Part shown: piece by piece, positions 28,725 through 50,531 of the stretch
Layout of the letters: the number at the start of each line of letters is the position of its first letter
Position numbering within the stretch: the first letter of the stretch is position 1
NCBI RefSeq assembly: GCF_001750685.1
Contig: NZ_CP017269.1
Coordinates: 1,465,416-1,529,415 of the forward strand
Direction: 5' to 3'
From: Geosporobacter ferrireducens
GTDB taxonomy: Bacteria > Bacillota > Clostridia > Peptostreptococcales > Thermotaleaceae
Length of the DNA stretch: 64,000 nt
The notes under the pieces: model-generated
The model's input: the letters and a program-made list of their open reading frames with translations, nothing else
What the model was told of the DNA's origin: nothing
Databases searched by the model: none
Position numbers and translations under genes: made by a program

Positions 28725-28960
28725 AGTTGGATAGTGCGACCCAAAGATCCTTCACTCCATTTAGGATGACAATTCATCCTACGGACGACCACAGGTCGCC
28801 CCTACAATTTATTCTTAACGGTCCAGCACCGTAGGGGATGAAATCCCCTGCCGCCTTCAGGAAGGTGCTCAGACAGCTTTGCTGTCGTCGAAGGAAACCT
28901 AGGGTTTCCTAGCGAAAGCGTCCTAGACACTCTTTTTATAGGGAAAGATTTCCCTCATAA
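28725..28960. other. GC-rich structured element beginning GATAGTGCGAC (solo copy of the end sequence of the 58.3-kb MITE-like element)
   Basis: Its left end GTTGGATAGTGCGAC matches the GTAGAATAGTGCGAC inverted-repeat terminus at 58275. Internal GC hairpins (GGGGATGAAATCCCC etc.). Lies in a 900-bp non-coding leader of the WYL gene pair. Confidence 0.35.
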
Positions 28961-35214: not shown

Positions 35215-35889
35215 ATGTATAATATCATTTTAATGGACTTAGACAATACTATTTTGGATTTTGATGCTGCGGAAAAAGAAAGTTTCAGAAAAATCATAGA
35301 ATTATCAGGACTAAACTATACAGATGCGTTATTGCAACAATATAAAAAAATAAACAAATCTTTATGGAATCGTCTCGAACAAGGACATCTTCCAAAAGAT
35401 GTCGTATTGAATACGCGTTTCAGTGAGTTTTTTGAGCTTTATGGCATTCAAGTTGATGGTAGCGATATAGAAAAAAAGTACAGATTTTACCTTGATAATT
35501 CTTCCTCGCTCATTTCCAATGCAGAATACACCTTAACAAAACTTAAGATGATGGGAAAAAGAATTTATTCAGCATCTAACGGTGTATATACAACACAAAT
35601 CAAGCGCTTGTCAAACGCTGGCATAATTGACTTGTTTGATGGACATTTTATCTCTGACAAAATAAAATATGAAAAGCCTTCCCCTTATTTCTTTGGATAC
35701 TGCCTCAAAAACATATATGGAGCTTTAAACAGTTCCATAATCATGGTAGGAGATAACCCTACTTCTGATGTGCAGGGAGCCGTTAATGTCGGAATTGATT
35801 CTTGTTTTTATCAACACAGCAAAAATGTTGAATGTACCTATGCCAACTATATCATACATGACATATCCGAACTTTTAGATATCGTATAG
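35215..35889 (+). CDS. HAD-superfamily hydrolase (subfamily IA, YjjG-like nucleotidase)
   Basis: DxD motif ILMDLDNTILDF, a cap domain, and C-terminal GDNPTSDVQGA. Confidence 0.8.
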   Translation: MYNIILMDLDNTILDFDAAEKESFRKIIELSGLNYTDALLQQYKKINKSLWNRLEQGHLPKDVVLNTRFSEFFELYGIQVDGSDIEKKYRFYLDNSSSLISNAEYTLTKLKMMGKRIYSASNGVYTTQIKRLSNAGIIDLFDGHFISDKIKYEKPSPYFFGYCLKNIYGALNSSIIMVGDNPTSDVQGAVNVGIDSCFYQHSKNVECTYANYIIHDISELLDIV

Positions 35890-36253
35890 TTTTTTTTATT
35901 AAAGATGATTATTCTCAATTTATCAGTAAGCAAAAGTCCTCGACGATCATCCCCACACTCAATGGGTTCTATCCATTCTCATTGTTTTCTTTTCTCAGTT
36001 TTCAAACTTCGCCAGGTGCTCCACATGTATTATTTTTGAAAATTAAAGCAAACGCAACATTGATCAGGTCTCCTCAACTCTATGCAAAATGTCCAATATC
36101 AAGTTTGTTCACTTAACCCTATCCATTTTTATACCATAGATATTCTTTTCCACATTCAAAAATAAAGATTTCCAAGCACCAGTTCTTTTCTATCAGATAC
36201 TCATTCGGAAAGTCCCATGCTCGGAAACCCTATATTTCGAGCCTACTATTTAA

Positions 36254-37258
36254 TTAGCATATCCTGGGGAGCATATCTCCCTCAAGAGGCCCAACAATTC
36301 TCCTGCCCCCAATAACTGTTTCCATCACTACCTTTGGAAATAGTCCAGTGGAAAGAAAGCTACCAATGATTGCTGCATCTTCACAGTCTTCACATTGCCA
36401 AATTTCCTCTAGTACCGCTCTAGCCTTCTGCTTGTCAACCACAATGATCAGCCTGCCCTCACAGGCATGATATAGTGGGTCTAGTCCTAAAAGCTCATTG
36501 ATAGATTTCACTTCCACAGCTATCGGAATAGCCTCTTCTAATAGCTGAATTCCGCGTCCTGATGCCTCTAGGATTTCATTTAAGGCAGTTGCCAAACCTC
36601 CTCTGGTAGGATCCTTCATTAACTTAATACTTCCCATATATGTCTGAAGCTTTTCAAGAATATGATTTAATGGTCTACAATCGCTTTTTATATTTTCTTC
36701 TACTTTTATTCCATACCGTTCCACCGCTATGGTAGTGCCATGCTGGGCAATTCCCCCAGTGATAATAATTTGATCTCCCGCTTGAATGGGTTTTGGTTGA
36801 TACTGAGCCTGAACCACGCCTATTCCAGAAGTATTGATGAATACCCCATCTACTGAGCCTTTCTCCACCACCTTTGTATCTCCTGTGATTATTTTCACTC
36901 CTGTTTTTCTACAGGTCTCTCCGATGGAGGCTGCAATTCTCTCAAGCAGCTCCATATCAAAGCCCTCTTCAATGATAAAGCCACAGCTTAAATATAATGA
37001 TCTGGCTCCTGCTGCAACGAGATCATTTATGGTACCACAGACAGCTAATTTGCCAATGTTTCCCCCTGGAAACACCAGAGGCTTTACAACAAAGGAGTCT
37101 GTTGTAAAGGCCAGTCTCCCATGAATCCCATCAAATACAGATGCATCTAGAGAATTTACTAACATATCGTTATGAAAATGCTTATAAAAGATATCCTTGA
37201 TCAGTATGCTTGTATGTTTTCCTCCGTCTCCATGGCGGAGCATCACTGTTTTTTCCAT
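36254..37258 (-). CDS. hypE: [NiFe]-hydrogenase maturation factor HypE (carbamoyl dehydratase)
   Basis: AIR-synthase-like fold: LRHGDGGKHTS N-terminus and C-terminal PRIC. Start MEKTV at 37258, one nt after the hypD stop. Confidence 0.9.
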   Translation of the reverse strand: MEKTVMLRHGDGGKHTSILIKDIFYKHFHNDMLVNSLDASVFDGIHGRLAFTTDSFVVKPLVFPGGNIGKLAVCGTINDLVAAGARSLYLSCGFIIEEGFDMELLERIAASIGETCRKTGVKIITGDTKVVEKGSVDGVFINTSGIGVVQAQYQPKPIQAGDQIIITGGIAQHGTTIAVERYGIKVEENIKSDCRPLNHILEKLQTYMGSIKLMKDPTRGGLATALNEILEASGRGIQLLEEAIPIAVEVKSINELLGLDPLYHACEGRLIIVVDKQKARAVLEEIWQCEDCEDAAIIGSFLSTGLFPKVVMETVIGGRRIVGPLEGDMLPRIC

Positions 37259-37259
37259 T

Positions 37260-38354
37260 CTACACTTCCTCCCCATACCGATAGTCAATGGAACAAGCCC
37301 CCTCTGTAGACACCATACAAGGCCCCTGAGGGCTCATTGGGTTACATCCTTTCTTAAAAAGCTTACATTCCCTCGGTGTCTTCTTTCCCAGTAAAATATC
37401 CTTACAATCACAGCCCATACTGACTTTTACCTGTTGATTTTCTAGCACAAATACCTTTCTTGCATCAAATCTAGCATATTTTTCTTTAATCTGTAGAGAA
37501 GAGTTTTCTATGTTACCAATTCCCCGCCACTCTCCATCTAAAATATTGAATACCTCATCTATCAACAGATTGGCAGTGGTATTCCCTTGAGGGCTTACAC
37601 ATCTTTTATATAGATTTTGAAAGGCGTCTTCTTTCCCTTGGGTGATCTGCTTCACCAGATAATATATCCCTGCTACAATGTCAACAGCTTCAAATCCACA
37701 TACGGCAGCTGGAACATGGTACTTCCTATTTATAAACTTAAAATAATCAGATCCCTTAATCGTAGCCACATGGCCTGGACAGATAAATCCATGGATCTGA
37801 TTGTTAGATTCCTTTAAAATATAATGCAGGATTGGTGCCATTAGCTTGAGGGAGGTAAGGAAATATAGGTTATCAATGCCCCTCTCCGCAGCCGTTTTAG
37901 TTGCTAAAGCTATAATAGGAGCTGTAGTTTCAAAACCTACCCCTAGAAAAACAATTTGTTTTCCTCTGTACTTTTCTGCTATATCAATGATGTCTAAAGG
38001 TGAATAAATTATCCTGACATCCTTCCCCTTCCCCTTTTCCTCCAGCAGGCTTCCCTTTCTTCCCCTCACTTTCATCAAGTCTCCAAAGGTAACCACTGTT
38101 ACATTATATCTATTTAAAATCTCTATAGCCCAGTCAATATACCTTTCTTCCGTTACACAGACAGGGCATCCTGGACCTGATAAAAGCTTTATTTTGGAGG
38201 ATAACAGCGTTCTTAGCCCCAGCTTAGCAATCATCTGAGTGTGGGTACCACAGACCTCCATAATCTTTATTTCTTCTGTGACCATGGAATTCACCTCATT
38301 GATTAGGTTGGTTAACAAATCCTTATCTATATCTATCTTCCTTCTCATTTCCAT
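37260..38354 (-). CDS. hypD: [NiFe]-hydrogenase maturation factor HypD
   Basis: Motifs MEVCGTHT, GPGCPVCV and FxCPGH. Start region overlaps the hypC end. Confidence 0.9.
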   Translation of the reverse strand: MEMRRKIDIDKDLLTNLINEVNSMVTEEIKIMEVCGTHTQMIAKLGLRTLLSSKIKLLSGPGCPVCVTEERYIDWAIEILNRYNVTVVTFGDLMKVRGRKGSLLEEKGKGKDVRIIYSPLDIIDIAEKYRGKQIVFLGVGFETTAPIIALATKTAAERGIDNLYFLTSLKLMAPILHYILKESNNQIHGFICPGHVATIKGSDYFKFINRKYHVPAAVCGFEAVDIVAGIYYLVKQITQGKEDAFQNLYKRCVSPQGNTTANLLIDEVFNILDGEWRGIGNIENSSLQIKEKYARFDARKVFVLENQQVKVSMGCDCKDILLGKKTPRECKLFKKGCNPMSPQGPCMVSTEGACSIDYRYGEEV

Positions 38355-38562
38355 CCACCATACTTTCAAGTATACCTAGTAAATCATCATAATAGCTTCT
38401 GTCAATCTTCTCAATAGCACACCCCACATGGATTAGCACATGCTCTCCAACCTTTAAATGTTCAATTAATTGTATATTGACAATCGTTTCTACACCCATG
38501 ATTTTTACCCTCGCCTCGGGAGAAAATAATTCAATAACTTCCCCAGGAACTGCAATACACAT
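38323..38562 (-). CDS. hypC: [NiFe]-hydrogenase maturation factor HypC/HupF
   Basis: N-terminal MCIAVPG (essential Cys2). 79 aa. Confidence 0.85.
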   Translation of the reverse strand: MCIAVPGEVIELFSPEARVKIMGVETIVNIQLIEHLKVGEHVLIHVGCAIEKIDRSYYDDLLGILESMVDGNEKEDRYR

Positions 38563-38563
38563 A

Positions 38564-40858
38564 TCAACCCTTCCCTTCTATTGCAGCTGCTATCCCTAAT
38601 TGTCCAACTGAAATCCCACTATCATTGGTGGGAATTTGTTGATGATAATAAACGTCGTAGTCTCTTTTCTTTAACCCCTTTACTACATAAGACAATAGAT
38701 AGATATTTTCAAAAACCCCTCCGCTGAATACGATATTGTTTATATGATATCTTTCCTTTATTCTAGTGATCATCTCTAGGGTCACATTGCCTATAGTATT
38801 ATGAAATTTAGCTGAAACAGCAGAAGGAGATAATTCATCCTCTATATCTTTTAAAACCCCCATTAGAATACTTTTATAATCAATTTGATAAACTCCATTT
38901 TCTTCTCCTATATGATAAGAATAGTATTCTTTAACTGAAGGGTCTAAAATATTTTCTAATTCAATGGCAGCCTGAGCATCGTAGGTAATTCGCTGTCGTA
39001 GATTCAGTAAGGCTGCCACACAGTCAAAAAGCCTTCCCATACTAGAACTTTCAAAGCAGTTTAAGTTTTGATCCAAAGCCTGTCTGACTGTATAAATACT
39101 TTTTTTGTCTACTTCTCTCAAAACCTTCTTATACTTATAATCGATTGCATGTATATAGCTGATGGCAATTCTCCAGGGTTCTTTGATTGCTTGATTCCCG
39201 CCTTGTATGGTGACATATTTTAAATGTCCTACTCGACTAAAACTCTCCCTTGTACCTACAAAAAACTCTCCGCCCCATATTTTGCCGTCTGTCCCTAGAC
39301 CCGTTCCATCAAAAACTACCCCTATCACAGGAGAAAATAGTCTGTGCTCCACCATACAACTAACCATATGGGCATGATGATGTTGTACTGCTATTTTTTT
39401 ACCTGCTATCGATTCTGCATATTGAGAGGATAAGTAGCTCCCATTGTAGTCATGAGCGATTACTTTAGGCTTCAATCCTAATAGGTTTACTAAATTTCCT
39501 ATTGCTTTTTCATAGATCCCATAAGTATCAAAATCCTTTAAGTCTCCTAAATACTGACTCATATACCCGTATTGATTTTGAGCAGCACAAAATGTACTTT
39601 TTTCCTCTGCCCCCAAGGCTAATGCTTCTTGTGTTATATTAATTGGAAAGGTGAAGGGGATATAGCCTCTTGCCCTTCTTACCAAAACCTCTTGGTCGTT
39701 TACTACCTTTATAACGGAATCCTCCACTGGGATATGTATATCTCGATTATGCATTAAGAAATAATCAGCAATCCTTCTTAGGTTCTCAATGGCTTCATGA
39801 TTTTCATATTGTACTGGAGCACTGCTTCTATTGCCACTGGTCATGACAAGCGCTGTGATTGTCCCCTCAAACAGTAAATAATGTAACGGTGTATAAGGGA
39901 GCATCACTCCCAATTTTTTCATATTCGGAGCAATTTCATCAGGTAGTGTCTTAGACGCCTTTTTTTCTAATAGAACAATAGGTCTTTTATTGCTTAACAG
40001 GATTTTTTCTTCTATTTCATTGATCATACATAATTCTCTTGCTACCTCTATATCCTTTACCATAAGAGCAAAGGGCTTATGGGGCCTGTTTTTTCTTTTC
40101 CTCAAAGCTTTTATAGTCTCTTGATTTCCAGCATCACAGGCTAAATGATATCCTCCTAGTCCTTTAATAGCCACTATTTTCCCTCTCTGCAAAAGGTCTA
40201 TGGTTTTTTGAATAGGATCAGTGCACAGCACTTTCCTTCCTTCATTCGTCAATACATATACAGAGGGTCCGCAATTTGGACAACAATTGGGTTGAGCATG
40301 AAATCTCCTATCCGCTGGATCATTGTATTCTCCCCTGCAGCTAGGACACATTTGAAAGTCATCCATGGTTGTATGAATTCGATCATAAGGCAATTTCCTA
40401 AGAATAGAATACCGAGAGCCACAAGCTGTACAATTTGTAAAGGGGTAATGATATCTCGGGTTATGTATATTAAATATTTCTTCTAGACACTGGGGACAAG
40501 TAGCCACATCTACACCGATAAATTTAAGCCCTTTTTCATCAGAGGAGCTGAATTTAATTTGAAAGTCTATATAGCCCTTATATTCCTTCGAAATTAATTG
40601 TATCTTTTCTATGATGGACAGATTAGGAGGATTCTTAATAATTTTTATTAAAAAATCTCTTATGGCTTTCCCTTCTCCCTCTATATCTAGGAGAACAGCA
40701 CTTCCCTGATTGCTAACCCAGCCTTTAATGTTAAAAAACTCAGCCTGGTTGTAAATATAAGGCCTGTATCCTACCCCTTGGACGATTCCATAAATTTCTA
40801 TTATGTACCTTCTCTTATCGATATCCTTAAGACGATTGTTATAGTTCAAAGGTCTCAC
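38564..40858 (-). CDS. hypF: [NiFe]-hydrogenase maturation carbamoyltransferase HypF
   Basis: 764 aa: acylphosphatase domain, two CxxC-x18-CxxC zinc fingers (CPQC...CTAC, CPSC...CPNC), YrdC and Kae1-like domains. Confidence 0.9.
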   Translation of the reverse strand: MRPLNYNNRLKDIDKRRYIIEIYGIVQGVGYRPYIYNQAEFFNIKGWVSNQGSAVLLDIEGEGKAIRDFLIKIIKNPPNLSIIEKIQLISKEYKGYIDFQIKFSSSDEKGLKFIGVDVATCPQCLEEIFNIHNPRYHYPFTNCTACGSRYSILRKLPYDRIHTTMDDFQMCPSCRGEYNDPADRRFHAQPNCCPNCGPSVYVLTNEGRKVLCTDPIQKTIDLLQRGKIVAIKGLGGYHLACDAGNQETIKALRKRKNRPHKPFALMVKDIEVARELCMINEIEEKILLSNKRPIVLLEKKASKTLPDEIAPNMKKLGVMLPYTPLHYLLFEGTITALVMTSGNRSSAPVQYENHEAIENLRRIADYFLMHNRDIHIPVEDSVIKVVNDQEVLVRRARGYIPFTFPINITQEALALGAEEKSTFCAAQNQYGYMSQYLGDLKDFDTYGIYEKAIGNLVNLLGLKPKVIAHDYNGSYLSSQYAESIAGKKIAVQHHHAHMVSCMVEHRLFSPVIGVVFDGTGLGTDGKIWGGEFFVGTRESFSRVGHLKYVTIQGGNQAIKEPWRIAISYIHAIDYKYKKVLREVDKKSIYTVRQALDQNLNCFESSSMGRLFDCVAALLNLRQRITYDAQAAIELENILDPSVKEYYSYHIGEENGVYQIDYKSILMGVLKDIEDELSPSAVSAKFHNTIGNVTLEMITRIKERYHINNIVFSGGVFENIYLLSYVVKGLKKRDYDVYYHQQIPTNDSGISVGQLGIAAAIEGKG

Positions 40859-41099
40859 CTTGGAGACTATGAATAATGGCTGTCTGCTCCTCTATATCTT
40901 CTCTTTGTAATTTAATCCGTAGGGCATCTCCTATGCATTCCTTACTATGAATCTCTAAGTGTTCCCGTAAGCTCTCTTCATTAACATGACTATGATGGTT
41001 CACCACCAATGTAAATGCTTCTATTTTCTTCAGTTTATATTCCTGACATAGTTCCTTTAGGGATTGTGCTATTTTATTTAATAAATAAGTATCATGCAT
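40839..41099 (-). CDS. HypA-like nickel metallochaperone N-domain protein lacking the C-terminal Zn-ribbon
   Basis: MHDTYLL N-terminus resembles the HypA MHE nickel-binding start, but no CxxC...CxxC is present. Position in the operon matches hypA. Confidence 0.45.
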   Translation of the reverse strand: MHDTYLLNKIAQSLKELCQEYKLKKIEAFTLVVNHHSHVNEESLREHLEIHSKECIGDALRIKLQREDIEEQTAIIHSLQGETFEL

Positions 41100-41111
41100 T
41101 TTAAACCCTCC

Positions 41112-41552
41112 TTATGATTTGATAATGAATTGATACACTTCCTCACATATATGAGAGAGCCTGGTTTCTAATACGTTGCTCAGTTTTAAACTAAAATCAA
41201 TCTCTTCCACTTCGATACCAACGATAAATCCGTCAACAGATTTTCCATAGATCTTTAGGAGGTGAACGAAACTTGGTTGGTGCTGTGAATAAGCTTGCGG
41301 ATGCGCTTTAATAGATTTATCAATCGGAGTAAAGGTTACAGTACCTGGTTTCACATTAAAGTAGGTTGCATCAAGAATAAATAAAAAATCTCCGTCCTCA
41401 ATTTTGCTTAAGGTAAAATCAATATCTGTCTCTCCTAGTATTACTTCGATGCCAATATGCTTCAACCGTGGTGAAAGTTCCTCTCCTACCCTGATTCCTA
41501 TGCTATCATCCCCCATGATCCGATTGCCAATCCCAATACATTTTACAGCCAT
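41112..41552 (-). CDS. hydrogenase maturation endopeptidase (HyaD/HybD/HycI family)
   Basis: IGIGNRIMGDDSIGIRV motif. Likely start MAVKC at 41552 next to the large-subunit stop. Confidence 0.85.
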   Translation of the reverse strand: MAVKCIGIGNRIMGDDSIGIRVGEELSPRLKHIGIEVILGETDIDFTLSKIEDGDFLFILDATYFNVKPGTVTFTPIDKSIKAHPQAYSQHQPSFVHLLKIYGKSVDGFIVGIEVEEIDFSLKLSNVLETRLSHICEEVYQFIIKS

Positions 41553-41553
41553 C

Positions 41554-42963
41554 TTATACAATCCTAATCTGCACCAAAGAATATCCACCACTTAATACAT
41601 GAGTGGCACAGGAAACACAGGGATCAAAGGACCTAACAATTCTTCCTATTTCCACAGGTTTTTTCAAATCTTCTATGGTTGTTCCTATCAATGCTTTTTC
41701 TACTACTCCCTTGAGTCCTCTAGAATCTTCTGGTGATAGATTCCATGCAGTGGGGGTAATAATCCCATAGTTTTGAATGCCTTCATCTTGAGTGGTAACC
41801 CAATGACCTAGGGCTCCTCTCGTAGTATCGATAAGCCCCTTTCCCTTGGCTTCACCTGGAAACGCATATCTTCCTTGTTGCGTTGGCTTAAACTCTACCC
41901 GTTCCAAAAGACCCTCCATAATTTCGATGATTTTTCCTACTTCTAACACCCTGGCAATGATTCTATCCATAGTTGAAATACCTCTGGTATAGTTACCACT
42001 TAACCACATCCTTGCAAGGGGGCCAACTTCCATGGGATTTCCTTCATACCGTGGTGCTTTAATCCAACTATAGCCCTCCTCCTTATACACATTTTCTTCT
42101 ACCGTTGGCTCCGTTGGTCTTTGTTCTGTCTGCCTTGCCTCATACCAAGCTCGATGAATGTTTTCAGTAATTTTTTCGGGGTTGAATCCTTGTAGCTCTC
42201 CATTGATAAATACCTGGGGACCCACATAAAATAGGTCTTTTTCCACGTAAGTATCAAATACCCCATAGGTCATTAGATTTTTATATCCTACTCCATTTTT
42301 AAAGTAATCAGGGTAATATTCTGCAGTGGTATATACATCAGGTATCATTCGTGTTACCACAAAATTCTTAATGGAGGCTAATATGGATTTGACCTTAATC
42401 CATTTCGCCGCATCTAGGTTCACTGTCACACCCCCTACAAATATGCCATGGGTATGGGGGGCTTTACCTCCAAGTACAGCTAACATTTCATGGGCTAGCC
42501 GGCTGTACTCAAGAGACTCCACATAGTTTCCAGATAACTCCCTATTCAACTCCTCAGGCAATCTATAATCATTATGAGTAACATTGTATAAAGGTTGAAT
42601 CTCCGGCCCCCTTACAAAGTCTGGCAAGGTATATTGGTAGAAATGCCTTAAATGGTTTTGAATAAATTCACATCCATGCATAAAATCTCTAATCATCTTG
42701 TCATTTTCATTAGGACAAATGTCTAATATATCTTCTAAGGCTAAAGTAGATCCCATGGAATGGGCAGTAGAACAAATACCACAAATTCTTTCTGTAAAAT
42801 AGATGGCATCCAAAGGCGGTCTTCCCCTTAACATTTTTTCAAAACCCCTAAAGAGCATACCACTACTTTTAGCATCGATAATTTGATTTTCTTCAACCTC
42901 TACTTGAATTTCTAAAAACCCACTGATTCGGGTAATTGGGTTGATGGTAATTTTACTTCCCAT
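41554..42963 (-). CDS. [NiFe]-hydrogenase large subunit
   Basis: N-terminal RICGICSTAHS (RxCGxC) and C-terminal DPCVSCATH (DPCxxCxxH), followed by a 14-aa extension removed by the protease. Confidence 0.9.
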   Translation of the reverse strand: MGSKITINPITRISGFLEIQVEVEENQIIDAKSSGMLFRGFEKMLRGRPPLDAIYFTERICGICSTAHSMGSTLALEDILDICPNENDKMIRDFMHGCEFIQNHLRHFYQYTLPDFVRGPEIQPLYNVTHNDYRLPEELNRELSGNYVESLEYSRLAHEMLAVLGGKAPHTHGIFVGGVTVNLDAAKWIKVKSILASIKNFVVTRMIPDVYTTAEYYPDYFKNGVGYKNLMTYGVFDTYVEKDLFYVGPQVFINGELQGFNPEKITENIHRAWYEARQTEQRPTEPTVEENVYKEEGYSWIKAPRYEGNPMEVGPLARMWLSGNYTRGISTMDRIIARVLEVGKIIEIMEGLLERVEFKPTQQGRYAFPGEAKGKGLIDTTRGALGHWVTTQDEGIQNYGIITPTAWNLSPEDSRGLKGVVEKALIGTTIEDLKKPVEIGRIVRSFDPCVSCATHVLSGGYSLVQIRIV

Positions 42964-42984
42964 AGTTTCCTCCCAAGTATTATT

Positions 42985-43863
42985 CTAATATCTTACAAAG
43001 GGCTCCATTCCGTCTGGAAACCTTTCTTGAGCACAGCCTATACAGGGTGTGTTATCTTCAATAGGCCAGTTTACATATCCATTCCACTGTCTTACAGGAC
43101 AATCGGTTCTAGTGACAGGCCCTCGGCAACCTAATTTAAACATACATTCTGGATTTCCTAGCTTTGTAGCAAAAATACCATTATCAAAATATGACCTTCG
43201 AGTACATCGATCGTGGATAGTAATACCATAAAATATTATGGGTCTGCTTTGGGCATCTAACTCTGGCATACCAAAGGCGATAAGGTTAGCGATTGTTCCG
43301 ATAGCCCAATCTGGATGGCTAGGACAACCTGGCACTCTGATCACTTCCTGATTTAAAAACTGTGGCACGCTGACACTTTGGGAAGGATTGGGTCGTGCAG
43401 CAGAAGGTCCTCCATAGGAAGCACAAGTTCCTACTGTCACCACGTACTTAGCCTTTTCCCCTGCCATTCTCACTGCCTCCATGGCCGTTACCAGCCCCCC
43501 TTGGTATCGGGCAATCACGGTGTATAGTCCATCATCCTTCGTAGCTACTGCCCCTTCGACCACCAGGATAAACTCCGTCTCTAAGGTATCCAAAAACTGC
43601 TGAAAGGCTGCCTCTCCTTCTGCAGCCATTAGACTATTGTTATATTTTAATGTCACCATCTGATCCAATAAATAAATTACATCTGGATTTTCTGCATTAA
43701 GTAAAGAAATAATATTTCCTGCACACCCCGTTGCCTCTAACCAGATTAAATTCATTTTATTCATACTAGCATTTTTGATTTTCTCTATTGCTAAACCCAT
43801 TATTCTTCTCGCTGTAATTGTTTTTGAATTGATCATTGGACAGTTACTTGATATCTCATTCAA
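42985..43863 (-). CDS. [NiFe]-hydrogenase small subunit (three Fe-S cluster type, no Tat signal evident)
   Basis: GTCASYGG, PGCP, and medial and distal cysteine motifs (CMFKLGCRG...DCP, CIGCAQ). The N-terminus lacks an RRxFxK twin-arginine motif. The first proximal-cluster Cys position appears as Ala (EATGCAGN). Confidence 0.85.
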   Translation of the reverse strand: MNEISSNCPMINSKTITARRIMGLAIEKIKNASMNKMNLIWLEATGCAGNIISLLNAENPDVIYLLDQMVTLKYNNSLMAAEGEAAFQQFLDTLETEFILVVEGAVATKDDGLYTVIARYQGGLVTAMEAVRMAGEKAKYVVTVGTCASYGGPSAARPNPSQSVSVPQFLNQEVIRVPGCPSHPDWAIGTIANLIAFGMPELDAQSRPIIFYGITIHDRCTRRSYFDNGIFATKLGNPECMFKLGCRGPVTRTDCPVRQWNGYVNWPIEDNTPCIGCAQERFPDGMEPFVRY

Positions 43864-43878
43864 ATGACTCCCTCCAAT

Positions 43879-44328
43879 CTATGGCTTTAACACCCCAACT
43901 TGAGGTAAGTTTCTTAAAATCTCAGGCCTCCCGCTATGGCAGCCCATAAAAGCGCCAGTTAAATCTCTACCAGCATACAAGCTAAAATGGGTACCTCCTC
44001 CCCAGGTTGCTTCTAAGCTTACATCGTAAACAATTCCATTTACTGCGACATAGGCAGACCTCCCATCTGAGCCATCATATTGGGCCAGCTCTTCCAGAGT
44101 GAACTCCCTTTGATTGGGTAGTGCATTTTCATCGACTTGATTACTTGGTTGGCTAGGCGGTTGGGCATACAATTGCAAATATTTCAAACGTCTTACCTCG
44201 TTATTGAATAGACCTTCGTAAATCATTCTTTGATAGGGATCTGAGCTTAATATAATCATCTGCTGATAATATTGTATATTGTGATAAATGAGAGACTTTT
44301 CTTTATCATACCAACGATTCGCCTTCAC
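43879..44328 (-). CDS. cytochrome b5-like heme/steroid-binding domain protein (possible hydrogenase redox partner)
   Basis: C-terminal FTLEELAQYDGSDGRSAYVAVNGIVYDVS...GRDLT resembles cyt-b5/MAPR. First gene of the hydrogenase operon. Confidence 0.55.
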   Translation of the reverse strand: MKANRWYDKEKSLIYHNIQYYQQMIILSSDPYQRMIYEGLFNNEVRRLKYLQLYAQPPSQPSNQVDENALPNQREFTLEELAQYDGSDGRSAYVAVNGIVYDVSLEATWGGGTHFSLYAGRDLTGAFMGCHSGRPEILRNLPQVGVLKP

Positions 44329-44644
44329 TCCATCTCCTCCAACATTCTTGATTTTATAAATTTTATGTTACGAAATCAGGAATTATTAGCCTTAACGGTT
44401 AGACCTCTACAAATTTGGTCCCTAGAGATTCTAAGAAGTTATATATCCATAACTATGATTTATAGAATTCTAACCAGTTCCTTACTTTTATAAAATCTCT
44501 TTGTTTTGCGAAATTTTTCCCCCTATAAAGCAAAGACCCCTAAACTTATCGTCTAGAGGAACATCCATCATTTTTTATTTTCATCTAAGACTTGCTAAGC
44601 TACTGATTTTAACCTACTTCTTCTCTATCAAAACCACACATTCT

Positions 44645-44880
44645 ACATCTCAAACGGCTGCGTCCGTATATTTAAAGAAGATGTTAATTTTATATAAGCG
44701 CTGGACACCATCGGTACAGCGGTTCGAATCATTCCTTCTGAGAGAGGTTTCCGTACCTATGCGGTGCAGATGAGATGTACCTTGTATTCCATTACCTTAA
44801 GCTTCGGAGTATCCTCTGAGAATCTTGTTGGTGTAAATGTGAGTGTGGATGCGATTACTGCTATTTTTTTGGGTAAAGCG
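44645..44880 (+). pseudogene. 3' fragment (catalytic Cys to LysM end) of a YkuD-LysM L,D-transpeptidase paralog
   Basis: Aligns at the nucleotide level with 33415-33660 of the intact copy (NGCVRIFKEDVNFI*...IIPSERGFRTYAVQ...) with frameshifts and stops. Homology starts abruptly at CAAACGG. Confidence 0.6.
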
Positions 44881-44966
44881 TTATTTACTGGTTAACAGCC
44901 TATTTCAGCGGGAAAAAGAGCGCAATGGTCATTATATTCCGGATGTAAAAAAGGATTGTTAGCTGA

Positions 44967-47077: not shown

Positions 47078-48931
47078 TTATCGAACACACGCATAAAGCT
47101 TGTGATAGTCAAAGCTACAAAGCTCTTCCACCGTTTCAAATCTTGGAACATTACAGAAATGGTTATTATCAATCGTTTCGTAACTCAATAGAAAAATATA
47201 ATTGCTAACAACAAAGCTTTCTGTTCCCTCATGGGGAATATACTGTACTTCTTCGAAAGGATTTTTATTCAATATTCTAAAATATACATAGAATTCAAGA
47301 TCGAATTCCTGTCTTTCCGTAATTTTCTTTTCCACTGCTTGAAAGAATTCCTTCACAGGGTCTTTTTGGTATTCCTGCTTTATTTGTTGATTGATACGCA
47401 TCTGAGTGACTATGGGGGAAATATTTTTAACAATCGTATCAATTAATAATACCTCTTCTTCTTTTAAGCTGTCCCTTGTTTCGATTACCACTAAAAATCC
47501 CATAGGAGAAGATTTTTCGTAAGCACAGCTGCTCCCTGACCCCATAGGAGAAATTACCAAGCAATTAGAACTTCCTATTACATCTACCAGTGATTCCTCA
47601 AAAAAATCTTTTATTGCACCTTGGTGGAAATCTTGGATTGTCTCTCGTTGCTGTGCTTTCTGCCAAGCATCATTTATTGTAAAGCTTATCTTTTTATCTT
47701 CTAAACCTATACTATGCGTTATGGCATATTTTTCTTGATCTTGGTATGCAAAGAAAGCTTTTTTTATACCAAAATTTATTGTCAAAACCTTTAAGACTAG
47801 ATCTGACAATTCTTCAATACTATTACTTAAGTTAACGGTACGTATAACCCTATTCAGGGTATCTAGTATACTAAATTTCCTCTCCACTCTCTCTTTTTGT
47901 GTGAGCATTTCTTTGAATAATAGGGCATTGGAAATCGCAATATGGGTAAAGGAAGCCAAAGTTTCAACCAGTTCAAAGGTAGCGTCATCATAGAGCCGAT
48001 CATTGACAGCCTCGCTCAAGGTAATCACACCTAAAATTTCATCCTTTACAAGCAAAATTACATATTTAGCCTGTAGGGCATAGAATTCTTCCCAGTTTGT
48101 AAAAATAGTTTGAATGCTCTCTAAATCCTTCTCAATATCTAAAACAATCTTATATGCGTGATAGCTGCGATTTGAAATATGTAACTCCGTAAGGAATTTT
48201 GTATAATTATGTACATTTCGATAGCCTAATACCTTGATACTTTTTGAAATTGAATCATATACCCCAAAAGAAGTAACTTTACTGCAGGTAATTTCACTGA
48301 ATATATCGGTAGCTAGAGAATACAGCTTATCTAAATTAACCTCTGATAGTAAAGATTTTGCACTTTGATTGATCGCAAATAAATTAAATATTTTTTGATC
48401 CAGTTCTTTTGTTTTGAGATAAAGTTCATGGATTTGTTTACTGTTTTCTAGAGAATTTCGGAATAATTTCGTTAATGAGCTGGCGATAACCCGATCATCT
48501 TCTTCTAAATTCCCCAAAATCTTTCCATTTGAAATAATAAACCCGTAAAGATAATCATGAATCACCAGTGGAATCACAAGTTGAATATTAAAATCTTTAA
48601 TCACCTCTTCACTAAAAAATGTATCAAATCTATTTGTTATGATATCCCCATGAAGTACCGGTAGATCCTCAAAGAAGCGATTATGTGCAATGCTGTACTG
48701 TTTAATCTCGTATAACCTAGCGTTTTTAAGAACATAGTTATCTCCTTCACGAATAAACAACGCAGAAGAATTTAAAGTTAATATTTCATTTGTGAAATCA
48801 AAGGCATATGCTCCCAACTGGTCTAAATTAAACCTTTGGGTAAAAAAATCAATGGCCTGTAGCAATACTTCATAACGATATACTTTATGTGTGGTTCTCA
48901 CATCCTCCAATCTGCTTCCTCCTTTAGTCAA
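47078..48931 (-). CDS. three-GAF-domain protein with no recognisable output domain
   Basis: 617 aa with three GAF-like segments (LYGFIISNGKILG, ILGVITLSEAV..., PMGFLVVIETRD). Overlaps the upstream DUF342 gene by 8 nt. Confidence 0.5.
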   Translation of the reverse strand: MTKGGSRLEDVRTTHKVYRYEVLLQAIDFFTQRFNLDQLGAYAFDFTNEILTLNSSALFIREGDNYVLKNARLYEIKQYSIAHNRFFEDLPVLHGDIITNRFDTFFSEEVIKDFNIQLVIPLVIHDYLYGFIISNGKILGNLEEDDRVIASSLTKLFRNSLENSKQIHELYLKTKELDQKIFNLFAINQSAKSLLSEVNLDKLYSLATDIFSEITCSKVTSFGVYDSISKSIKVLGYRNVHNYTKFLTELHISNRSYHAYKIVLDIEKDLESIQTIFTNWEEFYALQAKYVILLVKDEILGVITLSEAVNDRLYDDATFELVETLASFTHIAISNALLFKEMLTQKERVERKFSILDTLNRVIRTVNLSNSIEELSDLVLKVLTINFGIKKAFFAYQDQEKYAITHSIGLEDKKISFTINDAWQKAQQRETIQDFHQGAIKDFFEESLVDVIGSSNCLVISPMGSGSSCAYEKSSPMGFLVVIETRDSLKEEEVLLIDTIVKNISPIVTQMRINQQIKQEYQKDPVKEFFQAVEKKITERQEFDLEFYVYFRILNKNPFEEVQYIPHEGTESFVVSNYIFLLSYETIDNNHFCNVPRFETVEELCSFDYHKLYACVR

Positions 48932-50531
48932 AGATAAGTTGATTGTCTACTGCGTAGAAAGTTCCAGTGGTAACTTCCTTGATACGTTTTTGAATATTTT
49001 TAATCTCCAAAAAAGTTTGAGGATATGCTTTTTCAAATATAGATATTTCTCCATCCCCTTTAGATGTCAGCATTCTCATTAGACTCTTTCTTTCTTCTTC
49101 TAGTAGAAATATTTTATGTAACAATTCTTCATGGTTTTTATAAAAGCGAATATACTCCTCTGTATTCCTAATTTCATCAGTACTCGATAATGCTGTCTCA
49201 TATATCTTTAGTTCTCTTTCATTTTTTTCTGCTTGTTCAAGTAGTTTTTTATAGTTCATCAATAGTTTGTCTAATTCTTGCTTCATTGCTTTTCTATCAA
49301 AGCCATATACTTTTACATAGGTTTTTTTATCATAAATATTGCCAACGGTACGTAAAGCAACTTTTGTTTTTGCTTCAATACTTCCCCCAATCGTTCTTCC
49401 GTTTTTTGCCTCGATCACTATATTGTCTGCCTCTAATTGACTATCTACTGTATAATAACCGATGCTAATGGTATCTCCCGCTTTGATTGTACAGTTATTC
49501 GCATATTTTGTGAAAACATTTTGCCTAGCCTCAATATAGGTCTTTCCTTTGCCGGATATACCTCCTTTAATATATATGCTGCCTTCATTTGAAACAATCT
49601 TTTCAACAGCACCAATTCCTATATCTCCTAAAATTGATATATCCTTACCTGCCTGAACAGAGAATCCGTCTTCTACGATTCCTTCGATCGTTACATAGCC
49701 CTTAAAATTGATATTCCCTGTTTCATATCCTATATTTCCATGAATAATTAAATGATCTACAACGCCGATTTTCCCTTCCTTAACCTGTAAAGCCCCAGTG
49801 ATCTTTGCAAGCAGCAGTACGCGACCTTCAACCTCAAGAACCTCTACACTTTCTTTATCAAATCGTAGGGTTCTATCATTTCCGGCTTTTGCAGGTAAAA
49901 TATCTCCTTTTATATTCATTCCTGGCTCTCCTGCACGAGGCAGTACTTTTTCTCCCAATCGTTCTCCCTTTTCTACATGTCTGAAAAGGTTCATTTCGTA
50001 GTAGTCTACGCTTCCATCATCTGTAATCTTTGGTCTTTTTTCCGGTAGATCTAGATAATTAATACTTGCATCCGCTCCGCTCTTTGGTAGTACGCCTCTG
50101 GCAATAACAATATCCGTCTTTACGCTCAGGTCTTTGTTGATCACATCGTATAGTATGCCATACACAATTTTATTTTTTTCTAATAGCTCCAATAACTCTT
50201 TGACAACTTGTTCTTTGTGCTCTTCAAATTCTTCAGCTGTCAAATTGATATGAATTTTTGCTTCCAAATTATCTGGAGAAATCGTTATATCTATTTGTGG
50301 CTTTAACTTACCAAACTCCACAGCATTTTTGCCAGGTTCCTCTAAAGCTTTCTTTAATGCAAGAAAATTGGTTACATGGATACGAGGATAAGCTTCAATG
50401 ATTCGCTGGAAATCACGGATAGGGAACCCCGTCCCAAAAGGAGTAATATATAACTTGCCATCTCGCTCACTAATAGAAAAAAATTCATTTTGCATTAGCA
50501 TACAATACACTCCTATCCCTTCTAAATTCAT
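48924..50531 (-). CDS. DUF342 / FapA-family (flagellar-assembly-protein-A-like) beta-helix protein
   Basis: 535 aa. Central right-handed beta-helix repeats (GNIGYETGNINFKGYVTIEG...GKDISILGDIGIG) and a C-terminal coiled coil, as in DUF342. Confidence 0.65.
   Translation of the reverse strand: MNLEGIGVYCMLMQNEFFSISERDGKLYITPFGTGFPIRDFQRIIEAYPRIHVTNFLALKKALEEPGKNAVEFGKLKPQIDITISPDNLEAKIHINLTAEEFEEHKEQVVKELLELLEKNKIVYGILYDVINKDLSVKTDIVIARGVLPKSGADASINYLDLPEKRPKITDDGSVDYYEMNLFRHVEKGERLGEKVLPRAGEPGMNIKGDILPAKAGNDRTLRFDKESVEVLEVEGRVLLLAKITGALQVKEGKIGVVDHLIIHGNIGYETGNINFKGYVTIEGIVEDGFSVQAGKDISILGDIGIGAVEKIVSNEGSIYIKGGISGKGKTYIEARQNVFTKYANNCTIKAGDTISIGYYTVDSQLEADNIVIEAKNGRTIGGSIEAKTKVALRTVGNIYDKKTYVKVYGFDRKAMKQELDKLLMNYKKLLEQAEKNERELKIYETALSSTDEIRNTEEYIRFYKNHEELLHKIFLLEEERKSLMRMLTSKGDGEISIFEKAYPQTFLEIKNIQKRIKEVTTGTFYAVDNQLIFD

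What the first reader, a model, noticed from the sequence alone, without database searches (positions are those of the whole stretch)
36254..44328. Complete [NiFe]-hydrogenase/hyp locus with atypical features: no hypB, HypA-like protein without Zn-ribbon, small subunit without Tat motif and with an altered first cysteine motif, cytochrome b5-like first gene
The order on the minus strand is cyt-b5-like, small subunit, large subunit, protease, HypA-like, hypF, hypC, hypD, hypE. The nickel-inserting GTPase HypB is absent from the window. The hypA-position gene encodes only the Ni-binding N-domain (MHD...) and no CxxC-x-CxxC. The small subunit shows EATGCAGN where uptake hydrogenases normally have ECTGCSES, and it lacks an RRxFxK signal. 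This predicts a cytoplasmic, group-2/3-like enzyme. A soluble cytochrome-b5-fold protein in place of a membrane cytochrome b is unusual.
Basis: partly seen in the sequence, partly recalled or inferred. Interest (0 to 1): 0.5.

Follow-up and report, generated by a model that had tools for sequence, protein, structure and literature searches.

The report
Cytoplasmic clostridial [NiFe]-hydrogenase operon
This is an intact operon for a non-exported nickel-iron hydrogenase of a type common in clostridia, with a small haem-type partner protein and a stripped-down nickel chaperone; its odd-looking features are family traits, and the "missing" hypB gene lies in a second hydrogenase operon elsewhere on the same chromosome.

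Summary
The nine genes are real, intact and in the stated order on the minus strand (36254-44328). The window comes from the Geosporobacter ferrireducens chromosome. The enzyme belongs to a clostridial [NiFe]-hydrogenase family found in at least 403 species genomes. Its best-known member is HupSL/MbhSL (CA_P0141-0146) on C. acetobutylicum pSOL1, which the literature reports as HydDB group 1a.

All the "atypical" features are family-wide traits:
- No Tat signal.
- An invariant C-x-G-N proximal-cluster motif.
- An adjacent cytb5M-type (MAPR-like cytochrome b5) gene with both haem-ligating histidines.
- An 86-aa HypA that has the HypA nickel-domain fold but no zinc ribbon.

Missing Tat signals and undetected HypA/HypB in relatives were already published in 2022. 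Cys-to-Asn/Asp at the proximal cluster is known in groups 1f, 2a and 1h.

Two things are new here. Across 82 loci (80 species-genome loci, pSOL1 and the window), the Zn-free HypA never has hypB beside it (46 loci) and full-length HypA always does (9 loci), with at least two independent double deletions. Also, G. ferrireducens carries hypB in a second, canonical, Tat-dependent hydrogenase operon.

Verdict: an ordinary member of a known but biochemically uncharacterised family, with open questions about nickel insertion and the redox partner.

The parts
44467..44494 (-). Promoter-like site (TTTATA-16-TAGAAT) between an upstream terminator-like hairpin (44537-44559) and the first gene
   Evidence: Consensus scan only; the number of such sites in the region is no higher than in shuffles, so this is weak. 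No Rfam family matches in the 640-bp leader.
43879..44328 (-). cytb5M-type (MAPR-like cytochrome b5) protein, 149 aa: a variable helical N-domain (about 1-70) plus a b5 domain (about 74-148)
   Evidence: PF00173 E 1.5e-11. PDB 6NZX E 1.2e-13 and 6VZ6 E 1e-10. H114 and H131 align at or within two residues of the bis-His haem ligands H42/H61 of those structures and are 97% conserved in 76 homologues. GGAGGAG ribosome-binding site before the GTG start.
42985..43863 (-). [NiFe]-hydrogenase small subunit, 292 aa: no Tat signal, conserved 35-aa N-terminal extension with invariant Cys8, proximal motif G-C47-A-G-N50
   Evidence: PF01058 plus PF14720; TIGR00391 at 219 bits, above its cut-off. PDB alignments. 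Inferred ligand set C47/N50/C147/C180 (proximal), C255/C274/C277 with P267 (medial 3Fe type), H217/C220/C240/C246 (distal), all invariant in A4.
41554..42963 (-). [NiFe]-hydrogenase large subunit, 469 aa, with RICGICSTAH and DPCVSCATH motifs and a 14-residue C-terminal extension for proteolytic maturation
   Evidence: PF00374 E 1e-104. Best PDB matches are group 1a [NiFeSe] large subunits, E 8e-102. Exact match to AOT69426.1 of G. ferrireducens.
41112..41591 (-). Hydrogenase maturation endopeptidase (HyaD/HybD/HycI superfamily). The true start is probably the ATG at 41552, giving MAVKCIGIGN...
   Evidence: TIGR00072 at 84.9 bits, above its cut-off; PF01750.
40839..41099 (-). Minimal HypA: nickel-binding domain only (MHD N-terminus), with the zinc ribbon excised
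   Evidence: Pfam HypA positions 1-67 of 112, E 8e-6. Alignment with full-length HypAs from the same operon position shows a clean gap of about 31 residues. hhalign E 4e-5. AF2 pLDDT 84. The 13 best Foldseek PDB hits are all HypA, TM up to 0.74.
38564..40858 (-). HypF carbamoyltransferase, full length
   Evidence: TIGR00143 at 795 bits; five Pfam domains.
38323..38562 (-). HypC chaperone
   Evidence: TIGR00074 and PF01455.
37260..38369 (-). HypD
   Evidence: TIGR00075 at 411 bits.
36254..37288 (-). HypE (the true start is probably 10-15 codons inside the ORF)
   Evidence: TIGR02124 at 408 bits, with the alignment starting at residue 15.
36219..36242 (.). Palindromic GC-rich hairpin just after the hypE stop, between convergent genes; probable end of the operon
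   Evidence: Terminator-like scan. The next gene (35215-35889, HAD hydrolase) is on the opposite strand.

Best explanation
This is a self-contained operon of Geosporobacter ferrireducens. It encodes a cytoplasmic heterodimeric [NiFe]-hydrogenase of the clostridial lineage that the literature reports as HydDB group 1a (the CA_P0141/0142 type).

Shown here:
- The large subunit has the four active-site cysteines and a cleavable C-terminal tail.
- The small subunit has no export signal. It carries ligand sets for three clusters: proximal with 3 Cys plus Asn50, medial of 3Fe type, distal His plus 3 Cys.
- A cytb5M-type protein with both axial histidines is encoded beside the structural genes in 72 of 79 loci.
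- The N-domain of that protein occurs fused to the small subunit in some homologues.
- A dedicated endopeptidase, a zinc-free HypA and a full HypFCDE set follow.

Inferred:
- The enzyme oxidises H2 inside the cell and passes electrons along the three clusters to the haem of the b5M protein. That protein acts as a soluble third subunit or acceptor in place of the membrane cytochrome b of exported group 1 enzymes.
- HypCDEF build and insert Fe(CN)2CO.
- The minimal HypA docks on the immature large subunit and donates nickel through its Met1-His2-Asp3 site.
- The GTPase HypB is either borrowed from the second hydrogenase operon on the same chromosome or is not needed.
- The endopeptidase then removes the 14-residue tail.
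For: Gene identities.

Source genome: the large subunit and the HypA-like protein match G. ferrireducens proteins exactly, on a 5.79-Mb contig.

Family and conservation:
- 403 species genomes carry a relative with the GC[SA]GNIIS motif.
- In 82 loci (80 from species genomes, pSOL1 and the window) the module b5, small subunit, large subunit, protease (plus or minus short HypA) and HypFCDE recurs.
- pSOL1 has the same set.

No Tat signal:
- The ORF cannot be extended and has a ribosome-binding site.
- RR is present in only 8 of about 142 homologues that could be parsed; most have RK or KK. The longest uncharged run is about 7 residues.
- The extension is conserved in sequence, with C8 and K14 invariant.
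- The same absence of a Tat signal is reported for acetogen relatives (PMC9431212).

Group 1 affinity.

b5M haem ligands and partnership. The N-terminal extension of small subunit P0083 is 49% identical (E 1e-10) to residues 14-50 of the window's b5 protein.

Minimal HypA.

HypA type versus hypB in cis: 46 loci have short HypA and no hypB, 9 have full-length HypA plus hypB, and none are discordant. L022 is an independent excision nested inside the full-length clade.

hypB in trans.

Uptake role in relatives: hup knock-down and expression data are cited in PMC3044671.
Against: - There are no biochemical data for any member of this family. In C. acetobutylicum chemostat cultures HupSL was neither transcribed nor detected (PMC4669385).
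- The direction of catalysis and the physiological acceptor are inferred only.
- Clostridial relatives that keep the b5 gene are reported to have incomplete haem biosynthesis (PMC9431212), so haem loading is uncertain.
- In Clostridium sensu stricto the b5 gene sits between the protease and hypA, among maturation genes. That position would also fit an assembly role.
- The AF2 model of the small subunit was poor (pLDDT 66, below 50 around the cluster ligands and the N-terminus). The geometry of the Asn-containing cluster site and the place of Cys8 could not be examined.
- Seven loci have hypFCDE but no HypA of any kind nearby, so the short HypA may not be essential.
Confidence: 0.72

Rival explanations
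1. Nickel insertion into this hydrogenase does not depend on HypB at all. The zinc-free HypA (perhaps using invariant Cys18 and Ser37-His38 as extra ligands) has a constitutively competent nickel site and needs no GTPase-driven conformational switch.
For: Short HypA never has hypB in cis (46 loci) and full-length HypA always does (9 loci). There are two independent lineages of zinc-ribbon loss. In L022 the ribbon and hypB were removed by two separate deletions, which left the last beta-strand of HypA intact. Whole-genome surveys found no HypB in C. autoethanogenum, C. ljungdahlii, C. coskatii, C. sp. AWRP or C. ragsdalei (PMC9431212). Yet C. ragsdalei has the short HypA beside its hydrogenase (L034). 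The current model has NTP-bound HypB remodelling HypA to create the nickel site (review PMC12134894), so losing both together is coherent.
Against: G. ferrireducens and Clostridiaceae bacterium 35-E11 (L027) both carry hypB elsewhere on the chromosome, so supply in trans is possible here. From my own knowledge of the field, one HypB serves two HypA paralogues (HypA and HybF) in E. coli. The loci are phylogenetically related, so 46 to 0 reflects only about two independent events. The activity of the enzyme in the HypB-less acetogens is not established.
Confidence: 0.35
2. The cytb5M protein is not an electron-transfer subunit. It is an assembly or stabilising factor, or a ligand or redox sensor, for the hydrogenase.
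For: In 17 loci, including pSOL1, the gene lies after the protease and before hypA/hypF, among maturation genes. It is kept in species said to lack full haem synthesis. Its N-domain is variable, sometimes replaced by a Cys-rich segment, and sometimes occurs without the b5 domain fused to the small subunit.
Against: Both axial haem histidines and the surrounding b5M core are 97-100% conserved. Solved homologues bind haem. In 55 loci it is the first gene of the structural block. This enzyme has no other candidate acceptor encoded nearby.
Confidence: 0.25
3. The enzyme is exported after all, through an unusual signal or by hitch-hiking, and works as a classical extracytoplasmic group 1a uptake hydrogenase.
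For: HydDB describes group 1a as periplasmic, and the 2022 survey raised the possibility of unusual signal peptides. The window's small subunit happens to have an RR pair. The genome encodes TatA and TatC.
Against: RR is not conserved. No hydrophobic h-region or AxA site follows it. The extension is conserved in sequence and predicted helical. TatAC are encoded inside the other hydrogenase operon, whose small subunit has a textbook SRRDFIK signal. The partner b5M protein has no signal peptide either.
Confidence: 0.05
4. The locus is a redundant, decaying paralogue of the canonical hydrogenase operon and no longer makes an active enzyme.
For: There is a second complete system in the same genome. 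HupSL was not expressed in C. acetobutylicum chemostats.
Against: All nine ORFs are intact and of family-typical length. The small subunit is 66-93% identical across 120 clusters, with all cluster ligands invariant. Synteny is conserved in dozens of genera. Many family members have no second hydrogenase operon nearby.
Confidence: 0.04

Closest known systems
Clostridium acetobutylicum pSOL1 [NiFe]-hydrogenase HupSL/MbhSL, CA_P0141-CA_P0146 (the HydDB group 1a reference WP_010890826.1)
   Same: Same gene set: small subunit without Tat signal and with the GCSGN motif, large subunit (54.5% identical), protease, cytochrome b5 domain protein and an 86-aa 'hypothetical' protein that is the short HypA.
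   Different: On pSOL1 the b5 gene follows the protease instead of leading the operon. HypF is a truncated Sua5-domain protein, and hypCDE are not adjacent. The window has the full HypFCDE set in cis.
Periplasmic group 1a [NiFeSe]/[NiFe] hydrogenases of Desulfovibrio and Desulfomicrobium (PDB 1CC1, 2WPN, 4KL8, 5JSH)
   Same: Closest solved structures for both subunits: large subunit E 8e-102, small subunit E 1.6e-58. Same domain architecture, three-cluster small subunit and DPCxxCxxH tail.
   Different: Those enzymes are Tat-exported, have an all-Cys GCTGC proximal motif, an extra Cys that makes the medial cluster 4Fe-4S (the window has Pro267), and Sec in the active site of the NiFeSe forms (the window has Cys). 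From my own knowledge, they use periplasmic cytochrome c3 as acceptor.
Groups 2a, 1f and 1h [NiFe]-hydrogenases with a non-Cys proximal-cluster ligand
   Same: One proximal-cluster cysteine is replaced by Asn or Asp (PMC5364354). The same position carries N, D, E or H in 23 of about 125 diverse representatives that cover the motif. Groups 1h and 2a are also cytoplasmic and lack a Tat signal.
   Different: They are much more distant in sequence (Huc 170 bits, against 345 for group 1a). They have different partners and no cytb5M gene.
HypA nickel metallochaperone (T. kodakarensis 3A43, 5YXY, 5AUP; H. pylori 6G81, 2KDX), and the idea of hydrogenase-specific HypA paralogues such as E. coli HybF
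   Same: N-terminal Met-His-acidic nickel motif, alpha/beta nickel-domain fold (TM 0.74), and the operon position between the protease and hypF.
   Different: The zinc-ribbon domain (CxxC...CxxC, about 31 residues) is absent. No hypB is adjacent. It scores below the Pfam and NCBIfam cut-offs, and PGAP calls it 'hypothetical protein'.
Prokaryotic cytb5M proteins (Hadesarchaea 6NZX, Methanococcoides burtonii 6VZ6)
   Same: Same b5M domain, with both axial histidines conserved.
   Different: The solved proteins are stand-alone 78-aa domains with no reported link to hydrogenases; the word 'hydrogenase' does not occur in the defining preprint. Here the domain carries a 70-aa helical N-domain and is encoded in the hydrogenase operon.
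Second [NiFe]-hydrogenase operon of G. ferrireducens itself (L084/L086)
   Same: Small subunit, large subunit (38% identical), protease, HypA and HypFCDE in the same order.
   Different: It has a canonical Tat signal MKISRRDFIKW, a canonical GCSGC motif, a full-length zinc-ribbon HypA, HypB, and TatA/TatC inside the operon. It has no b5 gene.

Membership tests
[NiFe]-hydrogenase, group 1 (uptake-type heterodimer) | Large subunit with N-terminal RxCGxCxxxH and C-terminal DPCxxCxxH nickel-iron ligands, and a C-terminal extension removed by a specific endopeptidase | tested here: met
   ERICGICSTAH and FDPCVSCATH followed by 14 residues. PF00374 E 1e-104. Co-linear alignment to 5JSU. Dedicated protease gene.
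[NiFe]-hydrogenase, group 1 (uptake-type heterodimer) | Small subunit with N-terminal flavodoxin-like domain plus C-terminal domain carrying three Fe-S clusters | tested here: met
   PF01058 plus PF14720. TIGR00391 above its cut-off. The ligand positions for all three clusters are invariant in the family, except Asn50 in place of one Cys.
[NiFe]-hydrogenase, group 1 (uptake-type heterodimer) | Closer in sequence to group 1 references than to groups 2, 3 or 4 | tested here: met
   PDB bit scores: group 1a 345, group 1b about 260, group 1d about 228, Huc (2a) 170, group 3 about 95-105. No formal phylogeny or HydDB run was possible.
HydDB group 1a (periplasmic, ancestral-type uptake hydrogenase) | Twin-arginine signal on the small subunit and extracytoplasmic location | tested here: not met
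   No RRxFxK motif with an h-region; RR is not conserved in the family. The same result is reported for acetogen relatives that HydDB classes as 1a.
HydDB group 1a (periplasmic, ancestral-type uptake hydrogenase) | Classifier or nearest-neighbour assignment to group 1a | not testable with these tools
   HydDB was not available. Indirect evidence: the pSOL1 homologue WP_010890826.1 is the group 1a best hit used in PMC9431212, and the window's large subunit is 54.5% identical to it.
HydDB group 1a (periplasmic, ancestral-type uptake hydrogenase) | All-cysteine proximal 4Fe-4S cluster (CxxC...C...C) | tested here: not met
   C47-A-G-N50. Asn is invariant in 81 of 81 locus small subunits and in 119 of 120 database clusters.
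HypA nickel metallochaperone (PF01155 / TIGR00100) | N-terminal Met-His-Glu nickel-binding motif | tested here: met
   MHD, with Met1 and His2 invariant and Asp3 in at least 90% of 45 homologues.
HypA nickel metallochaperone (PF01155 / TIGR00100) | Nickel-binding alpha/beta domain fold | tested here: met
   AF2 pLDDT 84. Foldseek ranks 1-13 are all HypA structures, TM up to 0.74 and probability 1.00 for the top ten, 0.97-0.99 for ranks 11-13.
HypA nickel metallochaperone (PF01155 / TIGR00100) | Zinc-ribbon domain with two CxxC pairs | tested here: not met
   The protein contains no CxxC pair. The alignment shows a gap of about 31 residues exactly where full-length HypAs carry the ribbon.
HypA nickel metallochaperone (PF01155 / TIGR00100) | Score above the curated family cut-offs | tested here: not met
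   Pfam 26.3 bits against a cut-off of 28.9; NCBIfam 22.9 against 88.1. This is expected for a protein lacking a third of the profile.
cytb5M (MAPR-like prokaryotic cytochrome b5) | b5 fold closest to the 6NZX/6VZ6 class, with two axial histidines (H42, H61) | tested here: met
   E 1.2e-13 to 6NZX. H114 aligns to H42, and H131 lies within two residues of H61. Both are 97% conserved.
cytb5M (MAPR-like prokaryotic cytochrome b5) | Binds haem b | not testable with these tools
   This needs the purified protein (UV-visible Soret band, pyridine haemochrome assay).
Complete HypABCDEF maturation set in one operon | HypB GTPase encoded with the other hyp genes | tested here: not met
   No HypB in the window. 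HypB of the same chromosome (AOT71636.1) lies in another operon.

The most novel reading that the evidence does not exclude
A zinc-free, 86-residue HypA defines a nickel-insertion route that does not need the HypB GTPase. This would explain how clostridia reported to have neither HypA nor HypB can mature their [NiFe]-hydrogenase. In the same reading, the enzyme it serves is a distinct cytoplasmic subclass of group 1 hydrogenases, whose dedicated redox partner is a soluble cytb5M haem protein docked to the small subunit through its helical N-domain.
Probability: 0.3. Interest if true: 0.6.

Novelty: new member of a known kind. Interest (0 to 1): 0.4.

Why it matters
This family is the only [NiFe]-hydrogenase in many solvent-producing and acetogenic clostridia used in industry, and it has never been purified. 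HydDB's class description for group 1a calls it "periplasmic", which the sequences contradict.

Recognising the 86-aa "hypothetical protein" as a zinc-free HypA fills half of the "missing HypA/HypB" gap reported for C. autoethanogenum, C. ljungdahlii and their relatives. It also gives a concrete candidate for testing HypB-independent nickel insertion.

G. ferrireducens is a convenient natural comparison. It carries a canonical system (Tat-exported, all-Cys proximal motif, full HypA plus HypB) and a minimal one side by side on the same chromosome.

None of this overturns current understanding. It refines the annotation and points to feasible experiments.

Tried and rejected
1. Invariant Cys8 as the missing fourth proximal-cluster ligand. 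Not testable: the AF2 model of the small subunit had mean pLDDT 66, and below 50 at residues 1-14 and around the ligands, and no coordinates were available. The idea is also weakened because other lineages have the C-x-G-N motif without such a Cys (P0122), and Asn/Asp ligation is accepted in groups 2a, 1f and 1h.

2. The N-terminal extension as a fossil Tat signal. The closest Tat-bearing relatives (P0123, P0125, P0127) have RR about 38 residues before the WLE motif. The window has it 21 residues before. The two are not co-linear, so I dropped the idea.

3. A riboswitch or other known RNA in the 640-bp leader: none at E up to 1.

4. A nickel transporter, SlyD-like gene or HypB in the flanks: none among 20 neighbouring ORFs or by motif search.

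5. A direct sequence match of the short HypA to PDB entries: none. The fold search was needed instead.

6. Literature searches for this enzyme in C. aceticum and G. ferrireducens gave nothing specific. The first search on pSOL1 returned no papers.

8. Treating 46 versus 9 as independent observations (Fisher p = 6.5e-9 on the first count of 46 versus 7, before two more full-length cases were added). Rejected as a statistic, because the tree shows only about two independent transitions.

Full report
WHAT IS THERE

On the minus strand between 44328 and 36254 lie nine tightly packed ORFs. Pfam and NCBIfam identify them as follows:
- a cytochrome-b5-domain protein (149 aa)
- a [NiFe]-hydrogenase small subunit (292 aa)
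- a large subunit (469 aa)
- a maturation endopeptidase
- an 86-aa protein matching only the first 67 of 112 positions of the HypA profile
- HypF, HypC, HypD and HypE

Operon boundaries:
- Strong ribosome-binding sites precede the first two genes.
- A terminator-like hairpin and a promoter-like site lie in the 640-bp leader, and a GC-rich palindrome follows hypE.
- The next upstream gene, beyond the leader, is an unrelated same-strand gene; the next downstream gene is convergent and also unrelated.
- The operon is therefore self-contained and lies well inside the window.

No HypB signature occurs anywhere in the 64 kb.

The window comes from the Geosporobacter ferrireducens chromosome. The large subunit and the HypA-like protein are exact matches to AOT69426.1 and AOT69425.1, on a 5,792,634-bp contig.

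CHECK OF EACH "ATYPICAL" FEATURE

(a) Tat signal.
- The small-subunit ORF cannot be extended upstream.
- The window happens to have an RR pair, but only six uncharged residues follow it.
- In homologues the pair is mostly RK or KK.
- The 35-residue N-terminal extension is conserved in sequence (Cys8 and Lys14 invariant, Thr17 nearly so) and is predicted helical. It is part of the mature protein, not a signal.
- There is also no C-terminal anchor.

(b) Cysteine motif.
- HMMER alignments to solved small subunits put Cys47 opposite the first proximal-cluster cysteine and Asn50 opposite the second.
- The G-C-[SA]-G-N motif is present in 119 of 120 database clusters and in 81 of 81 locus sequences.
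- The other ligands are standard. Pro267 marks a 3Fe-type medial cluster, and His217 is the distal-cluster histidine.
- Asn, Asp, Glu or His at this position also occurs in other lineages, some of them with Tat signals. The literature records Asn/Asp there in groups 1f, 2a and 1h (PMC5364354). The substitution is unusual for group 1a but has precedent.

(c) HypA-like protein.
- It aligns with full-length HypAs found at the same operon position in related loci, with a clean gap of about 31 residues where they carry the CxxC...CxxC ribbon.
- Profile-profile comparison gives E 4e-5.
- An AF2 model (pLDDT 84) has HypA structures as its 13 best PDB matches, TM up to 0.74.
- Met1 and His2 are invariant. 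So are Cys18 and Ser37-His38.
- NCBI annotates all of these proteins as hypothetical.

(d) b5-like protein.
- Its C-terminal domain matches the cytb5M class: 6NZX at E 1.2e-13, and 6VZ6.
- The two axial haem histidines described for those structures correspond to His114 and His131, which are 97% conserved in 76 homologues.
- The roughly 70-residue N-domain is variable. It reappears fused to the N-terminus of the small subunit in at least two metagenomic homologues: 49% identity, E 1e-10, with that fused gene heading the operon. This fusion argues that the b5 protein binds the small subunit.

THE FAMILY

A scan of one genome per species found 403 genomes encoding a small subunit with this motif. 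All 80 loci retrieved come from Clostridia. Across 82 loci (those 80, plus pSOL1 and the window):
- 72 of the 79 that have both subunits also have the b5 gene beside them. It is first in 55 and after the protease in 17, the latter including pSOL1 of C. acetobutylicum.
- The pSOL1 cluster CA_P0141-0146 is the same module; its large subunit is 54.5% identical.

A 2022 survey of clostridial acetogens (PMC9431212) reports that:
- HydDB classes these enzymes as group 1a, with the pSOL1 protein as best hit.
- None has a Tat signal.
- A cytochrome b5 gene is nearby in some.
- HypA and HypB could not be found in five genomes.

Sequence scores agree with group 1 and not with groups 2 or 3.

WHAT IS NEW

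First, C. ragsdalei, one of the genomes reported to lack HypA, has the short HypA next to its hydrogenase (L034). The survey missed it because the protein has no zinc motif.

Second, HypA type and hypB presence in cis agree perfectly:
- 46 loci have the short HypA and no hypB within 10 kb.
- 9 loci have a full-length zinc-ribbon HypA with hypB immediately downstream.
- None are discordant.

The short form arose at least twice. One origin is the widespread MHD type (44 loci). The other is L022, whose MHEV-type sequence nests inside the full-length clade. L022 lost the ribbon and hypB by two separate deletions. These loci are related, so the count reflects only a few evolutionary events. The repeated pairing does fit the current model, in which NTP-bound HypB remodels HypA to form the nickel site (PMC12134894).

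THE MISSING hypB

A search with a related HypB returned a HypB from G. ferrireducens. Its cluster member AOT71636.1 lies on the same 5.79-Mb chromosome. In that species the gene sits in a second hydrogenase operon:
- a small subunit with the textbook signal MKISRRDFIKW and a canonical GCSGC motif
- a large subunit 38% identical to the window's
- a protease
- a full-length HypA
- HypB
- TatA and TatC
- HypF, HypC, HypD and HypE

The organism therefore has a canonical exported system and the minimal cytoplasmic one, each with its own hypFCDE. HypB could act in trans on the window's enzyme. Another genome with the short HypA (L027) also has hypB elsewhere. In the HypB-less acetogens this is not possible, so the family as a whole suggests HypB is dispensable. 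For this organism the question stays open.

MOST LIKELY MECHANISM

This is a cytoplasmic H2-oxidising [NiFe]-hydrogenase. Electrons run through a proximal cluster ligated by three Cys plus Asn, a medial 3Fe cluster and a distal cluster with a His ligand, then on to a bis-His haem in a bound cytb5M protein and to an unknown soluble acceptor. HypCDEF and the minimal HypA mature the enzyme, with or without HypB, and the dedicated endopeptidase finishes the process.
- The gene identities, ligand sets, lack of an export signal and conserved linkage are shown.
- The direction of catalysis, haem loading, the partner role and the nickel route are inferred.
- An uptake role is suggested by work on solventogenic clostridia cited in PMC3044671. 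However, HupSL was silent in C. acetobutylicum chemostats (PMC4669385).

VERDICT

It is typical of its family, and hypB exists elsewhere in the genome. The locus is a new member of a known, catalogued but uncharacterised family. The zinc-free HypA and the cytb5M partner are the parts worth following up.

Noticed in passing
Not in the window; G. ferrireducens chromosome, seen as L084:6655-16203 and L086:1299-10847: A second, canonical [NiFe]-hydrogenase operon in the same species: Tat-signal small subunit, large subunit, protease, full-length HypA, HypB, TatA, TatC and HypFCDE. A 1499-aa RCC1/WD40-repeat protein is encoded just upstream. The genome therefore has two complete hypFCDE sets.
   Followed up: partly
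window 42985-43863 (small-subunit residues 1-35): A conserved N-terminal extension with an invariant Cys8 (usually Cys-Pro) plus Lys14 and Thr17. Its function is unknown. It is not a Tat signal and is not required for the C-x-G-N motif in other lineages.
   Followed up: partly
L037:9685-9972, L040:9679-9972, L042:4711-5052, L048:9295-9642: In these loci the helical N-domain of the b5 protein is replaced by a short Cys-rich segment (CCRCPY..YCS), possibly a metal site.
   Followed up: no
L013:6182-6895 and L017:3825-4586: The protease and the short HypA lie in one continuous ORF (237 and 253 aa). These are either genuine fusions or overlapping genes read through by the mechanical ORF caller.
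   Followed up: no
L075:8244-9877: Two tandem b5-domain paralogues sit upstream of the small subunit. Both have extra C-terminal domains, and one has a long Gly/Thr-rich low-complexity tail and lacks the conserved histidines.
   Followed up: no
L061:9226-9489: A second, degenerate copy of the short HypA (MNDK..., His2 lost) lies upstream of the small subunit in Hathewaya massiliensis, in addition to the normal copy.
   Followed up: no
L001:8543-9961 (pSOL1 CA_P0146): The C. acetobutylicum cluster ends with a truncated HypF annotated as a Sua5/YciO/YrdC family protein; no other HypF domain is named in its annotation.
   Followed up: no
window 43879-44328 and 38564-40858: Public annotations disagree on starts. 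The b5 protein is listed as 126 aa (AOT73033.1) and as 149 aa (WP_236932708.1). The 764-aa HypF ORF read here is not in the protein collection as an exact sequence, so its annotated start differs.
   Followed up: partly
window 28817-28898 (+): A Clostridiales-2 sRNA (RF02937), 69 bits against a gathering score of 58.6. It is the only Rfam match in the window.
   Followed up: no
window 44329-44966: An unusually long (640 bp) non-coding leader upstream of the operon, with a terminator-like hairpin at 44537-44559 and no known RNA family. It could be a regulatory region or the remnant of a lost gene.
   Followed up: partly
window 47078-50531 (-): A 617-aa protein whose only Pfam match is a weak GAF-domain hit (28 bits, no single stretch significant) is translationally coupled to a FapA-family protein, upstream of the hydrogenase region. 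There is no evident link to the operon.
   Followed up: no
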